Source: Escherichia phage phiA2-1. From it: DNA of 44,857 nt. The DNA is taken from the sequence record OR861626.1; one strand, 5' to 3'. Under the pieces are notes generated by a model that did not search any database, was not told the DNA's origin, and worked only from the letters and a program-made list of their open reading frames with translations. Numbering within the stretch: the first letter of the stretch is position 1; the number at the start of each line of letters is the position of its first letter. Below, piece by piece: positions 5,492-41,733 of this stretch. The position numbers and the translations under genes are program-made.

Positions 5492-5882
5492 ATTATCATT
5501 GGCAGCAAGGGCATTCGTCGACGATTTGTTGGTAAATGAATTTCCGGTCAGATATCCAGTTGCTTGGGAGAACGCTGCCTTTGCGCCTCCTGCGGACGGC
5601 TCAATCTGGCTTAAGTACGACTACACAGAAGTTGACACAGTAACATACGGGTTAAGCAGGAAGTGCAAATACTACGTTGGCATGGTGCAGATTTCAGTGT
5701 TCTTCAGTCCGGGGACTGGGATTGATAAGCCGAGACAAATAGCTAATCAATTGGCAGAATCTATCGTTGATGGTACAATGCTTGACAGCGGGACCATTTA
5801 TGAGTCTGGAGTTGTTAACCCGGTTATCAAATCCAAGTCTGGGTGGTTTATCCCGGTTCGTTTTTATGTTCGTCTAGACTAA
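5481..5882 (+). CDS. Tail completion/terminator protein (putative)
   Basis: 133-aa ORF, GTG start with GAGGAGG RBS, directly before major tail protein. Confidence 0.3.
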   Translation: MQYELSLAARAFVDDLLVNEFPVRYPVAWENAAFAPPADGSIWLKYDYTEVDTVTYGLSRKCKYYVGMVQISVFFSPGTGIDKPRQIANQLAESIVDGTMLDSGTIYESGVVNPVIKSKSGWFIPVRFYVRLD

Positions 5883-5897
5883 CAAAAGGAAAAATAA

Positions 5898-6554
5898 ATG
5901 GCCCATCTCAGCAATGGCACGCAGGTCTTCGTAGAAGGCTCTCGCGGAGCTGCAATCGACGTAACTGCAATTTCTAACGCAGTTACCCCTGTTTTAACTG
6001 TATCTGACGCGTCTGGTTTGGTCGTTGGTGATTACCTGCTTTTCACCTCTTCTGCTTCAACGCTTCTAGCTGACAAGCAAGTTCGAGTGACTGCAATCAC
6101 TGGTACGTCAGTAACTGTTGAAGGTATTGATACCTCCAGCACCACAAAGTTCCCGGCTGGCTTAACTGGTGAAGTTGTCAAGATCACCTCCTGGTTCGAA
6201 GTTCCGTGCGTTCAGGACGTATCTACTGACGGTGGCGAACAGCAATTCGTTAACTTCCAGTGCTTGTCCGATGACCGTGAACAGCAGATTCCGACCTATA
6301 AATCTGCGGTAACTAACACCTTCACCTTCGCTCACGAGTACACCAACCCTGTATATCCGGTTCTGCGTAACTACGATGAGTCTGGCCAGGTTGTTGCGAT
6401 TCGTCTGTTCGTACCTCGAGCTAGCGAAATGCGCTTGCAGTCCGGCACTATCTCTTTCAACGACACCCCTACCATTGGTGTTAACGAAATCGAAACGGTA
6501 TCCATCGCAGTATCAATTCGTGGTCGCCTGTCCTCTGTGGCAGCTGAAGTTTAA
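5898..6554 (+). CDS. Major tail protein
   Basis: 218-aa ORF upstream of the chaperone and tape-measure genes; AAGGAAA RBS; strong terminator downstream. Confidence 0.5.
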   Translation: MAHLSNGTQVFVEGSRGAAIDVTAISNAVTPVLTVSDASGLVVGDYLLFTSSASTLLADKQVRVTAITGTSVTVEGIDTSSTTKFPAGLTGEVVKITSWFEVPCVQDVSTDGGEQQFVNFQCLSDDREQQIPTYKSAVTNTFTFAHEYTNPVYPVLRNYDESGQVVAIRLFVPRASEMRLQSGTISFNDTPTIGVNEIETVSIAVSIRGRLSSVAAEV

Positions 6555-6559
6555 AACAC

Positions 6560-6582
6560 AAACCCTCTTCGGAGGGTTTTTT
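6560..6582 (+). terminator. Rho-independent terminator
   Basis: AAACCCTC-TTCG-GAGGGTTT hairpin plus T-run. Confidence 0.55.
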
Positions 6583-6587
6583 ATTGC

Positions 6588-6650
6588 ATAGCACTTTTTG
6601 CTAAAGCACTTATTCAGCTTTACTGTATAGTTATCTCATCGAAACGAAAT
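6588..6650 (+). promoter_or_regulatory. Conserved promoter-like cassette (ATAGCAC-N4-TTGCTA box, 22-nt spacer, TATAGT, CATCGAAACGAAA leader)
   Basis: ATAGCACTTTTTGCTAAAG at 6588; TATAGT 22 nt after TTGCTA; ATCGAAACGAA at 6638..6648; ATG at 6665. Confidence 0.5.
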
Positions 6651-6664
6651 GAGAGATTAAAGAA

Positions 6665-6913
6665 ATGAATAACGTTAAAAACATCATCAAACTTGCTGCA
6701 GTTCTTGTTGCTTTTTATGCAGTAGTTCAGATTGTTAACCCAACTGGTGAGGCTGATGCCAATAGCAAGGCAAACAAATATACCGTTGAGTTCGCTAAAG
6801 CTGAGCGAGCATGTCAGGAGCTTGTGGGTAGTAAAGTTGACCAAATCATGAAATATGGCAAAGAGGTCTGCAAGGACTCAGCTGCTAAGATTGCAAAAGA
6901 AAACACTAAGTAA
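6665..6913 (+). CDS. Small secreted protein (signal peptide, no lipobox)
   Basis: 82-aa ORF; N-terminal hydrophobic segment KLAAVLVAFYAVVQIV; own promoter-like cassette upstream. Confidence 0.45.
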   Translation: MNNVKNIIKLAAVLVAFYAVVQIVNPTGEADANSKANKYTVEFAKAERACQELVGSKVDQIMKYGKEVCKDSAAKIAKENTK

Positions 6914-6952
6914 TAGAATACATACTCACAAACAATAAGAGGATTAACTAAG

Positions 6953-7267
6953 ATGGCTAAGTTCAAACTTTCACTGGCAGCACTCCCTGACTTCAAGCTT
7001 CCGGTAAAATTCAAGCTGGCTAACGACCAGGATGTAGAGGTTATCTTTACAGTCAAGCATAAGAAAACATCTGAGCTTCAGGAGCTTTTGCAGAAAGAAG
7101 ACTTGAGTACTAAAGAATTGATTATGGCAATCGCCTCTGATTGGGATTTGGAAGAAGAATACAACGAGGATAACGTTAATGAGTTCTCCGACCTGTTCCC
7201 AGCGTCAACGGTTGCACTGACTACCGCTTACATGCAGGCACTGGCAGGCCAGCGGGTAAAAAACTAA
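6953..7267 (+). CDS. Tail assembly chaperone (lambda G-like)
   Basis: 104-aa acidic ORF immediately before tape measure; downstream ORF in the -1 frame. Confidence 0.5.
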   Translation: MAKFKLSLAALPDFKLPVKFKLANDQDVEVIFTVKHKKTSELQELLQKEDLSTKELIMAIASDWDLEEEYNEDNVNEFSDLFPASTVALTTAYMQALAGQRVKN

Positions 7268-7587
7268 AGAGGGCGGTGTATCTACAGTACCAGTCAGATC
7301 CAACTGATGCCGAACTGGAAGCTATTGGGATGCGCCGCTCTGATTACGAAGATGAAGAGCCTGAAGTTTTACACTTCGACGACAACATGATGAAGGCTTG
7401 GGACATTTATTGTTCAATGGCCACGCAATGGAGGGTTGGAGCTAACGGAGCTACAGGGTTAGATTACAACGTGCTAAATTTCCTCTTTAGAGTGTATAAT
7501 GTCTCAGAAGAAGAATTGGTGCTCAGTGATTTACGCATCCTTGAAGCTAAGGCTCTCGAGATGATGGATAATCTGAGAAAAAAATAA
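7258..7587 (+). CDS. Tail assembly chaperone frameshift extension (lambda GT-like; expressed by -1 frameshift from 6953)
   Basis: Slippery heptamer A_AAA_AAC at 7258..7264 just before the G stop; -1 frame is open through to 7587. Confidence 0.4.
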   Translation, partial: KKLKRAVYLQYQSDPTDAELEAIGMRRSDYEDEEPEVLHFDDNMMKAWDIYCSMATQWRVGANGATGLDYNVLNFLFRVYNVSEEELVLSDLRILEAKALEMMDNLRKK

Positions 7588-7608
7588 CCCGCTTCGGCGG
7601 GTTTTCTA
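7588..7608 (+). terminator. Terminator-like hairpin
   Basis: CCCGC-TTCG-GCGGG plus TTTTCTATT; followed by GGAGG RBS of tape measure gene. Confidence 0.4.
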
Positions 7609-7622
7609 TTATGGAGGCTTAG

Positions 7623-10598
7623 ATGGCAACAAATGAATTAGCCGGAATCACACTAGCCGTAGACGTCTCGCAGGTAGACAGAGGTACACAGTCCCTGCGG
7701 AAGTTCAGGCAGGCAAACCAGCAGGCCGCTTCCGGCATTAGTGAGTTCGTCAACGCCGAGCAGGTTGCAAAGAATCAAGCCAGAGACACAGCTCGCGCAC
7801 TGGCTGAACAGCAATCATCTTTGGCTAAATTGCAAACGGCTATTGACCCAACTGCGGCAAAGTTCCGTAAACTCCAGGAGGCTGCTGTAGGTCTTGATAA
7901 GGCTTTCGCGGCTGGAGTAGTTCCTGATGAGGAGTTTTTCCGCTTAGGTGAGGCGCTTGAAACGCAGAACGCAAAACTTGCTCGTTCACGTGCGGCACTA
8001 ACTGAAGAGGGTAGAGCGGCGGCGCAAGCTGCAAAGGATAAGGCAAAGGCAAAGGCTGAAGCGGATAGATTCATTGCATCACTTGAGCGTCAGGCTCAGG
8101 CGGCAACATTGACGCGAGAGGAGTACCTAAAGTTACAAGCGGCCCAGCTTGGCGTAAGTTCTCAGGCGGCGCCTATTATTGACAGAATCGCCGATGCATC
8201 ACGGAAGGCAAACACCCAGCTAATTGCTCAGAGCAAGGCCTTTCAACGCTCTGGCTTAAGCGCAGGTCAATACAAGGCTGCAATCTCTCAATTGCCAGCG
8301 CAGATTACAGATATTGGGACATCACTTGCTGGCGGCATTCCGATTTGGCTTATTGCAATTCAGCAAGGTGGACAAATTAAGGATGCATTTGGAGGTATTG
8401 GTAACACATTTAGTTTTGCGCTTGCTGCTTTAAACCCGTTCAACGTAGCAGTTGGGGTTCTCGGTGGCGCGCTTGTTGCTTTAGGCGTCGGTGCTGCGCA
8501 GGCTGAAAGTGAATTCAGGGCGTTAAACTCCGCCATTGCGTTCTCAAACAACTCCACAATCGCATCAATCTCGCAGGTTAGAGAGTTGGTTAGCTCTGTT
8601 TCTGATGCCACTGGTGCAACCAGAGGACTTGTGACTAGCATCGCAACAAGCCTTGTTGAGCAAGGAAACCTTACGCTAACGCAGATTGACAAGATTACTA
8701 AATCAACAGCCAGATGGGCTCAGTTGACAGGTAAGGATGCAAAGGAAATTACTGGTTACTATAACCAGATTGCGAGCGACCCAATTCAAGGACTTGCTGA
8801 TTTAGACAAGAGGTTTAACTTCCTTACACAGGGGCAGTTAACAACAATTGAAAGATTGAGAGAGACTAGGGGTGAGGTTGAAGCCGTAACTGCTGCTATT
8901 GATATATTTAGCAAATCACAAGAGGCAAACCTTAACGATATTGCAGCCCAGCTTACTCCTCTTGAATTGGCCTGGAATGACTTCAGGAAGTACATATCTG
9001 ATGTATGGGATGCAATTAGTCGCAGAACGGTTGGGGCGCTAAACCTGTTTGTTGACGTAATCGCCGGAACAATTGAGCAAATTAGGGTCTTCATCAACCA
9101 GGGTGATGTGCTGATTGGTGAATTCGTAATTAGCGCAACACAGGCACTGCAGAACATCCCCGGCCTTGATGGTGTTGGTGATGATGTTGTCAAGGGACAG
9201 CAGAAGATTATCGATGCCGCTAAGAAGCAAAACATTGAGCTAGAGAAGTCTATCAAGGAGCGCGATGCCAGAATCAGAGAAGGAGAACTTGGCTACGTTA
9301 CTCGCAGAGAAAATCAGAATACCAATGAGCAGTCAGGCACGGATGAGGAGTTTGCAAAAAGGAAGAAAGCGCTTCAGGATGAACTTGATGCGATCAAGAA
9401 GAGCAGGAAAGAAGAAAATGGTAGGGTTAAAGAGCAAAGAGACCTTACAATTGGTTACGAATCTGGCGTACTTGCACTACAGGCACAACTCAAGGTGCTT
9501 CAGGAAAACAGGGATATTGGCGCAGTAATAAGCAATGAGCGCAAGCAGTATCTTCAGGAGGTTGCAAAATTCCAGATTCTTGAGCAAAGGCAGCGTGATG
9601 GCTCAATAAAAAAAGAGCAAGCAAGACTTCTCATTGAAAAGGATAAAGTTCTTGAGTTGGCCAGGCAGAAGGCTGAGCTAGGTGATCAGATTGTTTTGCA
9701 AGAAAGAGCCAATAAGTTGGCTGAAGATAACCGCAAGAAGATTCTTCAGATTAACAATGAGGCAAGCAATATTGATTTGGGTACTGGATTATCATCTCGT
9801 GAACTGCAAAGAGCCAAAGAGATTCAGGCTCTTCAGTCCAATCAGGTCAATGCTGGTGGCTCTCTTGATGACGTTGATTTTCAGCAGCTACTGGAAGCAA
9901 GACGTAACTTTTATGCCCAGGAGGATGCGCTACGTGAAAACTGGCTCGCTGGTGTTAATCAATCCTTTGCCAATTGGGCTGAGAGCGCGACGGATGCATT
10001 CTCAATTGCTGGAAGTTTAACCACAACAGTCTTTGAAGGCATTACCGACCAGATTACAAACCTCGTAACAACTGGCGAAACAAACTTCAGAGAGTTTACT
10101 GTTAGCATCCTTAAACAGATTGCTAAGATTGCAACTCAGCTTCTTGTTGTAAAGGCCATCGAATCTAGCTTAAGTAGCTTCGGTGGTACTGGTGGCGCTA
10201 TTGGATCGATTGCATCTGGCTTGGGTTTTGCTGGTGGCGGCTACACCGGCAATGGCGGCAAGTACCAACCGGCAGGAACGGTACACCGTGGTGAATTTGT
10301 ATTCACAAAAGAAGCGACGAGCCGAATTGGTGTGAAAAACCTTTACGCGCTAATGAAAGGTTACGCAAACGGCTGCGCTGTAGGTGGTCCTTCAGGCTAT
10401 GCAAATGGGGGTTTGGTTTCTGGTGGAACAGATGTTAATGTTAGCGGAATAACTGTTAACGTTAATGGCGGTGTTGGTAGCGACCCAGAACAAGCCAAAG
10501 CATTGCAGAGTGGCGTTAAGGCAATCGTAGCGGAAGAGATTGCTCAGTCCTTCCAGCAAGGAGGAAAAGCGTATGCCTATCTGAGAGGTTTTAACTAA
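7623..10598 (+). CDS. Tail tape measure protein
   Basis: 991-aa ORF; long Ala/Gln/Lys-rich coiled-coil regions; follows the G/GT chaperone pair. Confidence 0.75.
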   Translation: MATNELAGITLAVDVSQVDRGTQSLRKFRQANQQAASGISEFVNAEQVAKNQARDTARALAEQQSSLAKLQTAIDPTAAKFRKLQEAAVGLDKAFAAGVVPDEEFFRLGEALETQNAKLARSRAALTEEGRAAAQAAKDKAKAKAEADRFIASLERQAQAATLTREEYLKLQAAQLGVSSQAAPIIDRIADASRKANTQLIAQSKAFQRSGLSAGQYKAAISQLPAQITDIGTSLAGGIPIWLIAIQQGGQIKDAFGGIGNTFSFALAALNPFNVAVGVLGGALVALGVGAAQAESEFRALNSAIAFSNNSTIASISQVRELVSSVSDATGATRGLVTSIATSLVEQGNLTLTQIDKITKSTARWAQLTGKDAKEITGYYNQIASDPIQGLADLDKRFNFLTQGQLTTIERLRETRGEVEAVTAAIDIFSKSQEANLNDIAAQLTPLELAWNDFRKYISDVWDAISRRTVGALNLFVDVIAGTIEQIRVFINQGDVLIGEFVISATQALQNIPGLDGVGDDVVKGQQKIIDAAKKQNIELEKSIKERDARIREGELGYVTRRENQNTNEQSGTDEEFAKRKKALQDELDAIKKSRKEENGRVKEQRDLTIGYESGVLALQAQLKVLQENRDIGAVISNERKQYLQEVAKFQILEQRQRDGSIKKEQARLLIEKDKVLELARQKAELGDQIVLQERANKLAEDNRKKILQINNEASNIDLGTGLSSRELQRAKEIQALQSNQVNAGGSLDDVDFQQLLEARRNFYAQEDALRENWLAGVNQSFANWAESATDAFSIAGSLTTTVFEGITDQITNLVTTGETNFREFTVSILKQIAKIATQLLVVKAIESSLSSFGGTGGAIGSIASGLGFAGGGYTGNGGKYQPAGTVHRGEFVFTKEATSRIGVKNLYALMKGYANGCAVGGPSGYANGGLVSGGTDVNVSGITVNVNGGVGSDPEQAKALQSGVKAIVAEEIAQSFQQGGKAYAYLRGFN

Positions 10599-30345: not shown

Positions 30346-30584
30346 TAGTTGAAACTGGAAGGGACGCAGTATGGGCGCACTGTGCAGAGGCTGGCATTCA
30401 GGATGACATAAAGATGATATCTAAGTACTTCGACATAAAAGATATCAGCGTCATTTTCAACGGTAAGTTTACATACATGGATGAAAGACCTCGCAAGTAT
30501 GTCAGGGTTAAGCCTGGTGTCACGATAAACACGAATGAGTTCCTGAAAGAGCAGGGATTCAAATTTAAGATAACAAAGGGTTAG
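30342..30584 (+). CDS. Hypothetical protein
   Basis: Track ORF from 30297 (TTG); ATG at 30342 coupled to upstream small ORF. Confidence 0.35.
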   Translation: MIVETGRDAVWAHCAEAGIQDDIKMISKYFDIKDISVIFNGKFTYMDERPRKYVRVKPGVTINTNEFLKEQGFKFKITKG

Positions 30585-30586
30585 CT

Positions 30587-30838
30587 ATGTTTGGATTAGA
30601 TTTTCAGCCTGAACACTATGATTTAGTTCATGGTAGTAGTGGCGACAAGTTTAGAGTGATACCTATTTCTGACTGGTTTCCACCTGACTATGTGGATGTT
30701 AATGCGAAGACAAAGGATGGTAAATGGGTACAGATTTACTATTCTCCAGCGTGCGGAAATTTGTGCATGACTGACCTTGACCAGAAATTAGCAATTAGTG
30801 CGGATTTAATCGACTTCTGGTTGAAAGAAGTTGTATGA
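30587..30838 (+). CDS. Hypothetical protein
   Basis: 83-aa ORF. Confidence 0.35.
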   Translation: MFGLDFQPEHYDLVHGSSGDKFRVIPISDWFPPDYVDVNAKTKDGKWVQIYYSPACGNLCMTDLDQKLAISADLIDFWLKEVV

Positions 30839-41655: not shown

Positions 41656-41733
41656 GCTCTGCTAGCTCAATTGGATAGAAGCAACGACCTTCTAAGTCGT
41701 AGGTTACTGGTTCGAATCCAGTGCGGAGCGCCA
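41656..41733 (+). tRNA. tRNA-Arg (anticodon UCU), CCA encoded
   Basis: Hand-folded cloverleaf: acceptor GCTCTGC/GCGGAGC (one G-U), D-arm with GG, anticodon stem ACGAC/GTCGT with loop CTTCTAA, T-arm ACTGG-TTCGAAT-CCAGT, 3' GCCA. Confidence 0.7.

What the first reader, a model, noticed from the sequence alone, without database searches (positions are those of the whole stretch)
7250..7280. Candidate -1 programmed ribosomal frameshift joining the tail chaperone ORFs
Slippery heptamer A_AAA_AAC (7258..7264) lies three codons before the stop of the G-like ORF (6953..7267), and the -1 frame is open from there to 7587. This mirrors the conserved G/GT frameshift of lambda-like tail assembly chaperones.
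Basis: partly seen in the sequence, partly recalled or inferred. Interest (0 to 1): 0.4.

Follow-up and report, generated by a model that had tools for sequence, protein, structure and literature searches.

The report
Phage tail chaperone -1 frameshift site

Summary
A_AAA_AAC lies at 7258-7264 in the correct register at the end of a 104-aa ORF (6953-7267). That ORF is a Pfam Phage_TAC_4 tail assembly chaperone. The -1 frame is open from 7183 to 7587 and encodes a DUF1799 "T" domain. The pair sits between the major tail gene and the tape-measure gene.

The window is an Rtpvirus-like coliphage (Drexlerviridae), 99.8% identical to IME253 over 5800-7700.

The heptamer alone is no rarer than chance. 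Comparison supplies the evidence:
- All 92 distinct relatives keep the two-frame layout.
- 59 keep A_AAA_AAC directly followed by the stop, down to about 30% protein identity.
- The base before the Lys codon is A in 92/92, although that codon's amino acid varies.
- Only 8/92 have a possible start codon near the T 5' end.
- In one relative a -1-frame stop confines the shift to the heptamer.

The joined CDS is already annotated in OzMSK (identical junction), Tls and Sazh, so this is not novel.

New here: a 72-nt hairpin (7270-7341, -31 kcal/mol) begins 5 nt after the heptamer. It is more stable than 1000/1000 synonymous recodings. Other lineages carry different hairpins. No covariation and no protein data are available.

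The parts
6953..7267 (+). G-like tail assembly chaperone ORF, 104 aa, zero frame, stop TAA 7265-7267
   Evidence: Pfam Phage_TAC_4 E=3.2e-33, full length. PHROG 569 and PHROG 17368 positions 1-107.
7258..7264 (+). Slippery heptamer A_AAA_AAC. Zero-frame codons are AAA 7259-7261 and AAC 7262-7264, and the heptamer directly abuts the stop.
   Evidence: Conserved with an adjacent stop in 59 of 92 distinct relatives. A7258 equivalent is invariant in 92/92. In NHEP3 a -1-frame TGA sits directly before the heptamer.
7264..7587 (+). T-like extension read in the -1 frame, 107 codons from CTA 7264 to TAA 7585-7587. The -1 frame is open from 7183.
   Evidence: Pfam DUF1799 E=5.8e-16. PHROG 17368 positions 107-210 and PHROG 680. 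The peptide LKRAVYL, directly after the shift, is conserved in relatives that have no start codon there.
7270..7341 (+). Predicted RNA hairpin about 5 nt 3' of the heptamer. It has a 14-bp basal stem (7270-7283 with 7328-7341) plus inner helices. It is a candidate frameshift stimulator.
   Evidence: The hairpin alone folds at -31.3 kcal/mol, and basal pair probabilities are about 1.0. Against dinucleotide shuffles z=-3.97, 0/200 as stable. 0/1000 synonymous recodings are as stable. From 7273 on, the stem arms are invariant in 9 Rtp-clade sequences; gene-wide 19% of sites vary. No Rfam family matches.
7276..7278 (+). GTG annotated in some records as an independent T start. It more likely just encodes the conserved Val of KRAVYL.
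   Evidence: GAGGG 7269-7273 lies only 2 nt upstream, and both sit inside the 5' arm of the hairpin. The position is GTT or GTA in most relatives. Only 8/92 have a start codon there.
5898..6554 (+). Major tail tube protein gene (upstream neighbour)
   Evidence: Pfam Phage_tail_3 E=2.3e-68.
7623..10598 (+). Tape measure protein gene (downstream neighbour), 991 aa
   Evidence: Pfam TMP_2 E=1.1e-48 and Tape_meas_lam_C E=6.4e-20.
7586..7603 (+). Terminator-like GC hairpin with a T-rich tail, between the T stop and the tape-measure start
   Evidence: A terminator is annotated at the same place in phage Sazh.

Best explanation
Genes 6953-7267 and 7264-7587 are the G and T parts of a lambda-type tail assembly chaperone pair in an Rtp/T1-like coliphage.

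Most ribosomes terminate at TAA 7265 and make the 104-aa G protein. A small fraction slip one base back on A_AAA_AAC (7258-7264). They continue in the -1 frame to 7587 and make a 211-aa GT fusion.

By analogy with lambda, the G part binds the tape-measure protein and the T part (DUF1799) recruits the tail tube protein. That functional step is inferred.

tRNA-Lys re-pairing from AAA 7259-7261 to AAA 7258-7260 is fully cognate. The A-site tRNA-Asn would re-pair only near-cognately (AAC to AAA). The heptamer is therefore intrinsically weak in E. coli.

Two features probably raise or tune the shift. Both roles are inferred:
- the stop codon that directly follows the heptamer;
- the 72-nt hairpin that starts about 5 nt downstream (7270-7341).

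Shown: the sequence anatomy, the family assignment, the conservation, and the thermodynamic excess of the hairpin. Inferred: the shift itself, its efficiency, the stimulator roles, and the protein functions.
For: Anatomy and register.

Family and synteny:
- G is Phage_TAC_4 (3e-33) and T is DUF1799 (6e-16).
- They lie between a Phage_tail_3 tube gene and a TMP_2 tape-measure gene.
- PHROG 17368, a 213-position profile, spans G and T as one protein.

Conservation:
- tblastn of the fusion hits 1153 phage records. In the 60 rows listed, matches that span both parts are, with one exception, split into two or three pieces, i.e. G and T in different frames.
- 92 distinct intact loci all have T in the -1 frame.
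- 59 end ...GNA AAA AAC + stop. These include T1-length contig L070, Tls and Rtp, and relatives at about 30% identity, NHEP3 and ChibiTotoro.

Nucleotide-level selection:
- Codon -3 is GTA, GCA, GAA or CAA. The amino acid varies, yet the third base is A in 92/92.
- An Ala codon five codons upstream ends in A in only 19/88.
- Arg codon -4 uses all four CGN codons.
- The Lys codon is invariant as Lys.

Shift window: in NHEP3 a -1-frame TGA directly precedes the heptamer.

No conserved own start for T: the first start codon in the T frame is 17-74 codons in for 82/92 (and 7 codons in for two more). The residues before it are conserved.

Prior annotation of the join: OzMSK, Tls and Sazh. Literature.

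Hairpin:
-.
- 41/48 distinct A_AAA_AAC-class loci fold more stably than at least 95% of synonymous recodings.

Precedent for A_AAA_AAC in E. coli: IS1 is a proven case.
Against: There is no protein, ribosome-profiling or reporter evidence for this phage or family.

A_AAA_AAC is a poor shifter in E. coli reporters (Sharma 2014 supplement):
- 0.16% without a stimulator;
- 0.19% with the IS911 stimulator;
- 0.74% with the IS3 pseudoknot.
A lambda-like 30:1 ratio is therefore not guaranteed.

Rogunavirus relatives have GCA AAG GTC TAA. They lack a canonical heptamer and show no excess downstream structure (0/5), yet keep the same two-frame layout. Klebsiella relatives have GCA AAA GTY TAA. The full heptamer is thus not indispensable family-wide. 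The universal element may be only A_AAR.

The hairpins show no compensatory covariation: 0 double changes in 22 T1-like sequences. Within the Rtp clade the arms are nearly invariant rather than co-varying. One relative, BEK2, has a stem mismatch.
Confidence: 0.85

Rival explanations
1. This is a variant of the main explanation. The real shift is a single-tRNA slip of tRNA-Lys on the tetramer A_AAA (7258-7261), helped by the nearby stop, rather than a tandem two-tRNA slip on the heptamer. The junction would read ...RVK-K-LKR instead of ...RVK-N-LKR.
For: A_AAR placed exactly one codon before the stop is the only element common to all 92 distinct loci. The classes are A_AAA_AAC, A_AAA_GTY, A_AAG_GTC and A_AAG_AGT. 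NNA_AAG and A_AAR tetramer shifts are documented in E. coli. Re-pairing AAC to AAA is poorly tolerated by bacterial ribosomes.
Against: AAC, never AAT, is retained in 59/92. This suggests the seventh base matters. In reporters the tetramer A_AA.A is the weakest of the six working tetramers, whose frequencies range from 0.26% to 5.6% with a pseudoknot.
Confidence: 0.3
2. T is made on its own by initiation at GTG 7276 (SD-like GAGGG 7269-7273). No fusion is needed, and the two ORFs are simply adjacent genes.
For: GTG 7276 with a purine-rich stretch upstream exists in the window. RefSeq and GenBank records of IME253 and others annotate a separate 103-aa CDS there. The OzMSK annotators note 'also has independent RBS'.
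Against: The spacing between GAGGG and GTG is only 2 nt, and both lie inside the 5' arm of a -31 kcal/mol hairpin. The codon is GTT or GTA in most relatives. Only 8/92 distinct loci have any start codon there, and 82/92 have the first one 17-74 codons into the conserved domain. The -1-frame residues L-K-R-A upstream of that Val are conserved.
Confidence: 0.05
3. The fusion arises by transcriptional slippage. RNA polymerase adds one extra A in the A6 run (7258-7263), giving an mRNA in which G and T are in frame.
For: Inserting one A would fuse the frames. Contig L081 carries A7 and reads REKKL in a single frame. Public assemblies vary in the run length: A5 in four loci and A7 in one.
Against: From general knowledge, six A's is shorter than the runs on which appreciable slippage by E. 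coli RNA polymerase is documented, roughly 8-9 or more. Relatives with only A4 (GCAAAAGTT) or A3 (GCAAAGGTC) keep the same -1 layout. A downstream hairpin at 5-7 nt spacing fits ribosomal stimulation. At least L019, L034 and L081 among the length-variant assemblies carry other indels nearby, which points to sequencing error.
Confidence: 0.05
4. The juxtaposition is due to chance. The heptamer is incidental and T is not expressed, or is a decaying remnant.
For: The heptamer is not over-represented in the window. An in-register slippery heptamer in a 28-codon overlap has about 8% prior probability.
Against: The T frame stays open and DUF1799 is conserved, together with the layout, in hundreds of phages down to about 30% identity.
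Confidence: 0.02

Closest known systems
Phage lambda gpG/gpGT tail assembly chaperone frameshift (Levin et al. 1993; Xu et al. 2004, 2013, 2014, as summarised in PMC5009743)
   Same: Two overlapping ORFs lie between the major tail gene and the tape-measure gene. The second ORF is in the -1 frame and has no conserved start. A slippery heptamer sits at the 3' end of G. Low-level production of a fusion is expected.
   Different: The Pfam families differ: Phage_TAC_4 plus DUF1799 here, with no match to the lambda G or T families. The heptamer is A_AAA_AAC rather than G_GGA_AAG, which is far more shift-prone in E. coli. Here the heptamer abuts the stop codon and is followed by a strong predicted hairpin.
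Annotated tape measure chaperone pairs of Drexlerviridae: Tls tfmA/tfmS (AY308796), Sazh CPT_Sazh_046/047, OzMSK CPTvBecoSOzMSK_030/031
   Same: These are orthologues. The junction ...GTA AAA AAC TAA is identical, and the OzMSK sequence is identical to the window over more than 60 nt around the site.
   Different: The window's nearest relative, IME253 (99.8%), and most other records annotate two separate CDSs, named 'hypothetical' or 'tail length tape measure protein'. The downstream hairpin of the Rtp clade (72 nt, long-range) differs from the short GGGCGGTT/AACCGCCC hairpin of Tls and T1.
IS1 insA-insB' -1 frameshift at A_AAA_AAC
   Same: The heptamer is the same and works in E. coli at low efficiency. 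It is a proven case.
   Different: IS1 has no established stimulator. It is a transposase, not a phage chaperone. Here a hairpin and an adjacent stop are present.
E. coli dnaX -1 frameshift (A_AAA_AAG with an upstream SD-like element and a downstream stem-loop)
   Same: An A-rich heptamer is decoded by the single E. coli tRNA-Lys, and a downstream stem-loop lies at similar spacing.
   Different: The seventh base is C, not G, so the site is much weaker. No conserved upstream SD-like element was seen (sequence inspection). The product is longer, not shorter.

Membership tests
G/GT-type tail assembly chaperone frameshift pair (Xu et al. 2004 definition) | Two ORFs located between the major tail (tube) gene and the tape-measure gene | tested here: met
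   Phage_tail_3 gene at 5898-6554. G at 6953-7267, T to 7587, TMP_2 gene at 7623-10598. One extra 82-aa ORF (6665-6913) intervenes between the tube gene and G.
G/GT-type tail assembly chaperone frameshift pair (Xu et al. 2004 definition) | The second ORF overlaps the first in the -1 frame and lacks a conserved initiation signal of its own | tested here: met
   The -1 frame is open 7183-7587. It is in the -1 frame in 92/92 distinct relatives. A start codon near the 5' end of T is present in only 8/92.
G/GT-type tail assembly chaperone frameshift pair (Xu et al. 2004 definition) | A slippery sequence in the overlap, conserved among relatives | tested here: met
   A_AAA_AAC at 7258-7264. It is conserved in 59/92, and the A_AAR core in 92/92.
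G/GT-type tail assembly chaperone frameshift pair (Xu et al. 2004 definition) | A fusion protein is actually produced at a low, fixed ratio and is required for tail assembly | not testable with these tools
   Needs a Western blot, mass spectrometry or genetics. No experimental report for T1- or Rtp-like phages was found.
Pfam Phage_TAC_4 (PF08748) | Score above the gathering threshold over the full domain | tested here: met
   115 bits against a cutoff of 21.1. Residues 1-104 match profile positions 1-124 of 124.
Pfam DUF1799 (PF08809), the T-like domain | Score above the gathering threshold | tested here: met
   58.9 bits against a cutoff of 26. Profile positions 1-80 of 80 are matched.
Canonical bacterial -1 PRF signal (X_XXY_YYZ plus a 3' structure at 5-9 nt) | Heptamer in register allowing re-pairing of both tRNAs | tested here: met
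   The register is verified. P-site re-pairing is cognate and A-site re-pairing (AAC to AAA) is near-cognate. It is a low-efficiency class in E. coli.
Canonical bacterial -1 PRF signal (X_XXY_YYZ plus a 3' structure at 5-9 nt) | A downstream stimulatory RNA structure supported by evolution | tested here: inconclusive
   The thermodynamic excess is strong: z about -4, and 0/1000 synonymous recodings are as stable. 41/48 related loci are significant. However, there is no compensatory covariation, and structure is absent in Rogunavirus relatives. Function is untested.
Rfam frameshift elements | Match to a curated covariance model | tested here: not met
   Only sub-threshold chance hits in 7150-7700, to rsmX and P9, both at the terminator hairpin.

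The most novel reading that the evidence does not exclude
The T1/Rtp-like Phage_TAC_4 + DUF1799 chaperone family may use an unusual, tunable signal with three components:
- a deliberately weak heptamer (A_AAA_AAC, below 1% in E. coli reporters);
- a zero-frame stop locked directly against it (a 'shifty stop');
- lineage-specific hairpins that have been rebuilt repeatedly on one conserved 5' arm (GGGCGG, encoding Arg-Ala-Val) with different 3' partners.

The 3' partner lies at about +20 nt in T1 and Tls, and at about +60 nt in the Rtp clade to which the window belongs.

One lineage (Rogunavirus) has dropped both the heptamer and the hairpin and would rely on a bare A_AAG slip.
Probability: 0.35. 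Interest if true: 0.35.

Novelty: already known. Interest (0 to 1): 0.15.

Why it matters
The main practical use is annotation. The window's nearest relatives (IME253 and many others) list G and T as two separate 'hypothetical' or mis-named 'tape measure' CDSs. They should carry a joined ribosomal-slippage CDS of 211 aa.

Biologically it adds nothing new in kind. It does offer a large natural series of more than 1000 phage records in which the following elements vary:
- a weak heptamer;
- an adjacent stop;
- interchangeable hairpins;
- heptamer-less variants.

That series could be used to study how G:GT stoichiometry is tuned.

Tried and rejected
- Upstream SD-like stimulator, as in dnaX. GCAGGC 7244-7249 is not conserved in relatives (sequence inspection). 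Rejected.
- Other slippery sites in the overlap 7183-7267. No other in-register XXXYYYZ is present.
- Covariation support for the hairpins. There were 0 compensatory changes in 22 T1-like sequences. The Rtp-clade arms are nearly invariant, so the test cannot say anything. More Rtp-clade diversity was sought in IMG/VR, but only the 8 contigs already held came back.
- Rfam match for the hairpin. None found.
- Solved structures and NCBIfam names for G/GT. No hits.
- Xu et al. 2004 could not be read; it is not in the library. Its content is cited only through papers that cite it.
- A second look-alike site, A_AAG_GGT at 30575-30581 next to a stop. The downstream ORF has its own ATG and SD, so it is an ordinary gene junction.
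- A5 and A7 run-length variants in public assemblies. These are judged to be homopolymer sequencing errors, because at least three of the five loci carry other nearby indels.

Full report
**What is in the sequence**

ATG 6953 opens a 104-codon ORF. It ends ...CAG CGG GTA AAA AAC TAA, with the stop at 7265-7267. AAAAAAC at 7258-7264 is therefore in the X_XXY_YYZ register, A_AAA_AAC. The -1 frame is open from 7183 to TAA 7585-7587.

Two details of the finding need correction. The heptamer directly abuts the stop rather than lying three codons before it. The predicted fusion is 211 aa: 104 aa plus 107 aa from codon CTA 7264.

**Is it more than chance?**

The motif alone is not unusual. AAAAAAC occurs 12 times in the window against 13.1 expected. 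In-register XXXYYYZ heptamers occur at 34 of 11,729 codons of a crude gene set. One in the 28-codon overlap has roughly an 8% prior. It is, however, the only one of the 34 followed by a -1 ORF longer than 100 codons (109; the next are 87 and 69). The case rests on context and comparison.

**Identity and context**

Region 5800-7700 is 99.8% identical to Escherichia phage vB_EcoS-IME253, which is Rtpvirus, Braunvirinae, Drexlerviridae.

Family assignments:
- The G ORF is Pfam Phage_TAC_4 (E=3e-33, full length).
- The -1-frame extension is DUF1799 (E=6e-16).
- The upstream gene 5898-6554 is a Phage_tail_3 tube protein.
- The downstream gene 7623-10598 is a TMP_2/Tape_meas_lam_C tape-measure protein.

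PHROG 17368, a 213-position profile, matches G on positions 1-107 and T on positions 107-210. Fused G-T proteins therefore already exist in that database.

**Comparative evidence**

A tblastn of the conceptual fusion finds 1153 phage records. In the 60 rows listed, matches that span both parts are, with one exception, split into two or three pieces, i.e. G and T in different frames.

I collected 108 loci, of which 92 are distinct intact G..T sequences. All 92 have T in the -1 frame.

The last codons of G fall into these classes:
- CGN-GNA-AAA-AAC-stop in 59. These include a 48,836-bp contig (L070) that is presumably T1 itself, Tls and Rtp. They also include two relatives at only about 30% identity, NHEP3 and Serratia phage ChibiTotoro.
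- GCA-AAA-GTY/GCC-TAA in Klebsiella phages.
- GCA-AAG-GTC-TAA in Rogunavirus.
- CAA-AAG-AGT-TAA in one locus.

Signs of selection on nucleotides rather than amino acids:
- Codon -3 encodes V, A, E or Q but ends in A in 92/92.
- An Ala codon five positions upstream ends in A in only 19/88.
- The neighbouring Arg codon uses all four CGN codons.
- The Lys codon is AAA in 85 and AAG in 7.
- Asn is always AAC.

In NHEP3 a -1-frame TGA lies directly before the heptamer. This leaves only the heptamer itself for the frame change.

The T frame has a potential start codon near its 5' end (the window's GTG 7276) in only 8/92 sequences, all from the Rtp clade. In two others the first start codon is 7 codons in, and in the remaining 82 it is 17-74 codons in, inside the conserved domain. 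The residues before that point (L-K-R-A-V-Y-L) are conserved.

**Prior knowledge**

The joined frameshift CDS is already annotated in three records:
- OzMSK, whose junction is identical to the window.
- Tls, as tfmS.
- Sazh.

[quoted passage not shown] The Rogue1 paper noted the missing classical site in Rogunavirus. The biology of lambda G/GT, including the 30:1 ratio and binding of the tape-measure and tube proteins, is summarised in PMC5009743. The finding is therefore correct but already known.

**How it probably works**

E. coli has a single tRNA-Lys, which is shift-prone on A-rich sites. Moving from AAA 7259-7261 to AAA 7258-7260 keeps cognate pairing. tRNA-Asn moving from AAC to AAA does not, and bacterial ribosomes tolerate that poorly.

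In E. coli reporters:

| Heptamer | No stimulator | IS911 stimulator | IS3 pseudoknot |
|---|---|---|---|
| AAAAAAC | 0.16% | 0.19% | 0.74% |
| AAAAAAG | 0.29% | 4.3% | 39% |

IS1 nevertheless uses A_AAA_AAC productively. The site is therefore intrinsically weak.

Two conserved features may compensate or tune it. Both roles are inferred:
- The stop codon always follows one codon after the Lys codon. 'Shifty stops' are a known class of stimulator (Weiss et al. 1987, cited).
- There is downstream RNA structure, described next.

**The downstream hairpin**

In the window, 7270-7341 folds into a 72-nt hairpin. It has a 14-bp basal stem plus inner helices, at -31.3 kcal/mol, and basal pair probabilities are about 1.0.

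Support for it:
- It starts about 5 nt after the heptamer.
- Against dinucleotide shuffles, z = -3.97 with 0/200 as stable.
- No recoding of the T-frame codons that preserves the protein, drawn from the phage's own codon usage, is as stable (0/1000).
- Among nine Rtp-clade sequences, 19% of G-T sites vary. From 7273 on, the stem arms do not vary. The changes inside the hairpin fall in the apical part (7299, 7305, 7311) or at its base.

Other lineages carry different hairpins built on the same 5' arm:
- T1 and Tls: GGGCGGTT...AACCGCCC.
- NHEP3 and ChibiTotoro: GGCGGC...GCCGCC.

Overall 41/48 distinct A_AAA_AAC-class loci beat at least 95% of their synonymous recodings. None of the five Rogunavirus sequences does.

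Caveats:
- There is no compensatory covariation: 0 double changes in 22 T1-like sequences.
- BEK2 has one stem mismatch.
- No Rfam family matches.
- The stimulator role is plausible, at about 0.55, but unproven.

**Rivals**

- Independent initiation of T at GTG 7276 is unlikely. The SD-like GAGGG is only 2 nt upstream, both lie within the hairpin arm, and the codon is not a start in most relatives.
- Transcriptional slippage on A6 would also fuse the frames. The run is short, though, and relatives with A3-A4 runs keep the same layout.
- A single-tRNA slip on A_AAA is a live variant of the main model, because A_AAR is the only universal element. It changes one junction residue, K instead of N.
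- Chance is excluded by the conservation.

**Verdict**

The feature is the known G/GT frameshift of T1/Rtp-like phages. Interest is low. The only modestly new points are the downstream hairpin and the diversity of shift-site variants in the family.

Noticed in passing
window 7270-7341: There is a strong 72-nt hairpin inside the T coding sequence, more stable than all 1000 synonymous recodings. Related lineages pair the same 5' arm (GGGCGG) with different 3' partners.
   Followed up: yes
L003 (2725-N35, MN840485), L019 (N5822), L034, L064; L081: Four public assemblies have A5 instead of A6 at the slippery run, which puts T in the +1 frame. One has A7, an in-frame G-T fusion reading REKKL. At least three of the five carry other nearby indels, so these are probably homopolymer sequencing errors, but real run-length heterogeneity was not excluded.
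   Followed up: partly
L013-L017, L021 (Rogunavirus: Jk06, Sf12 and others); L022, L023, L082 onward (Klebsiella phages); L026: These relatives keep the -1 G/T layout without a canonical heptamer. Their junctions are GCA AAG GTC TAA, GCA AAA GTY TAA and CAA AAG AGT TAA. Only A_AAR placed one codon before the stop is universal. The Rogunavirus group also lacks excess downstream structure.
   Followed up: partly
window 7586-7603 and 6560-6579: Terminator-like GC hairpins with T tails sit right after the T stop (before the tape-measure start at 7623) and right after the major tail gene. Terminators are annotated at the same two places in phage Sazh. They may set the relative dosage of tube, chaperone and tape-measure transcripts.
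   Followed up: partly
window 6665-6913 (+): An extra 82-aa ORF (phrog_22925, function unknown, no Pfam hit) lies between the major tail gene and G. In Tls-type relatives G follows the tail gene directly.
   Followed up: no
window 41656-41733 (+): There is a tRNA-Arg(UCU) gene. The first Arg codon read after the shift is AGG (7270-7272), which is rare in E. coli and is decoded by this type of tRNA. Relatives use CGA or CGG there.
   Followed up: no
window 30575-30584 and 30587-30838: A_AAG_GGT directly precedes a TAG stop, with an 83-aa ORF in the -1 frame. This looks like a second frameshift site, but the downstream ORF has its own ATG and AAGGG Shine-Dalgarno, so it is an ordinary gene junction.
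   Followed up: yes
NC_047810.1 (IME253), NC_048208.1 and many Pharokka-style records: G and T are widely mis-named 'tail length tape measure protein' or 'hypothetical protein' and are annotated as two separate CDSs. Several records labelled Campylobacter or Pseudomonas phage are more than 91% identical to this coliphage over 5800-7700, so their host labels are questionable.
   Followed up: no
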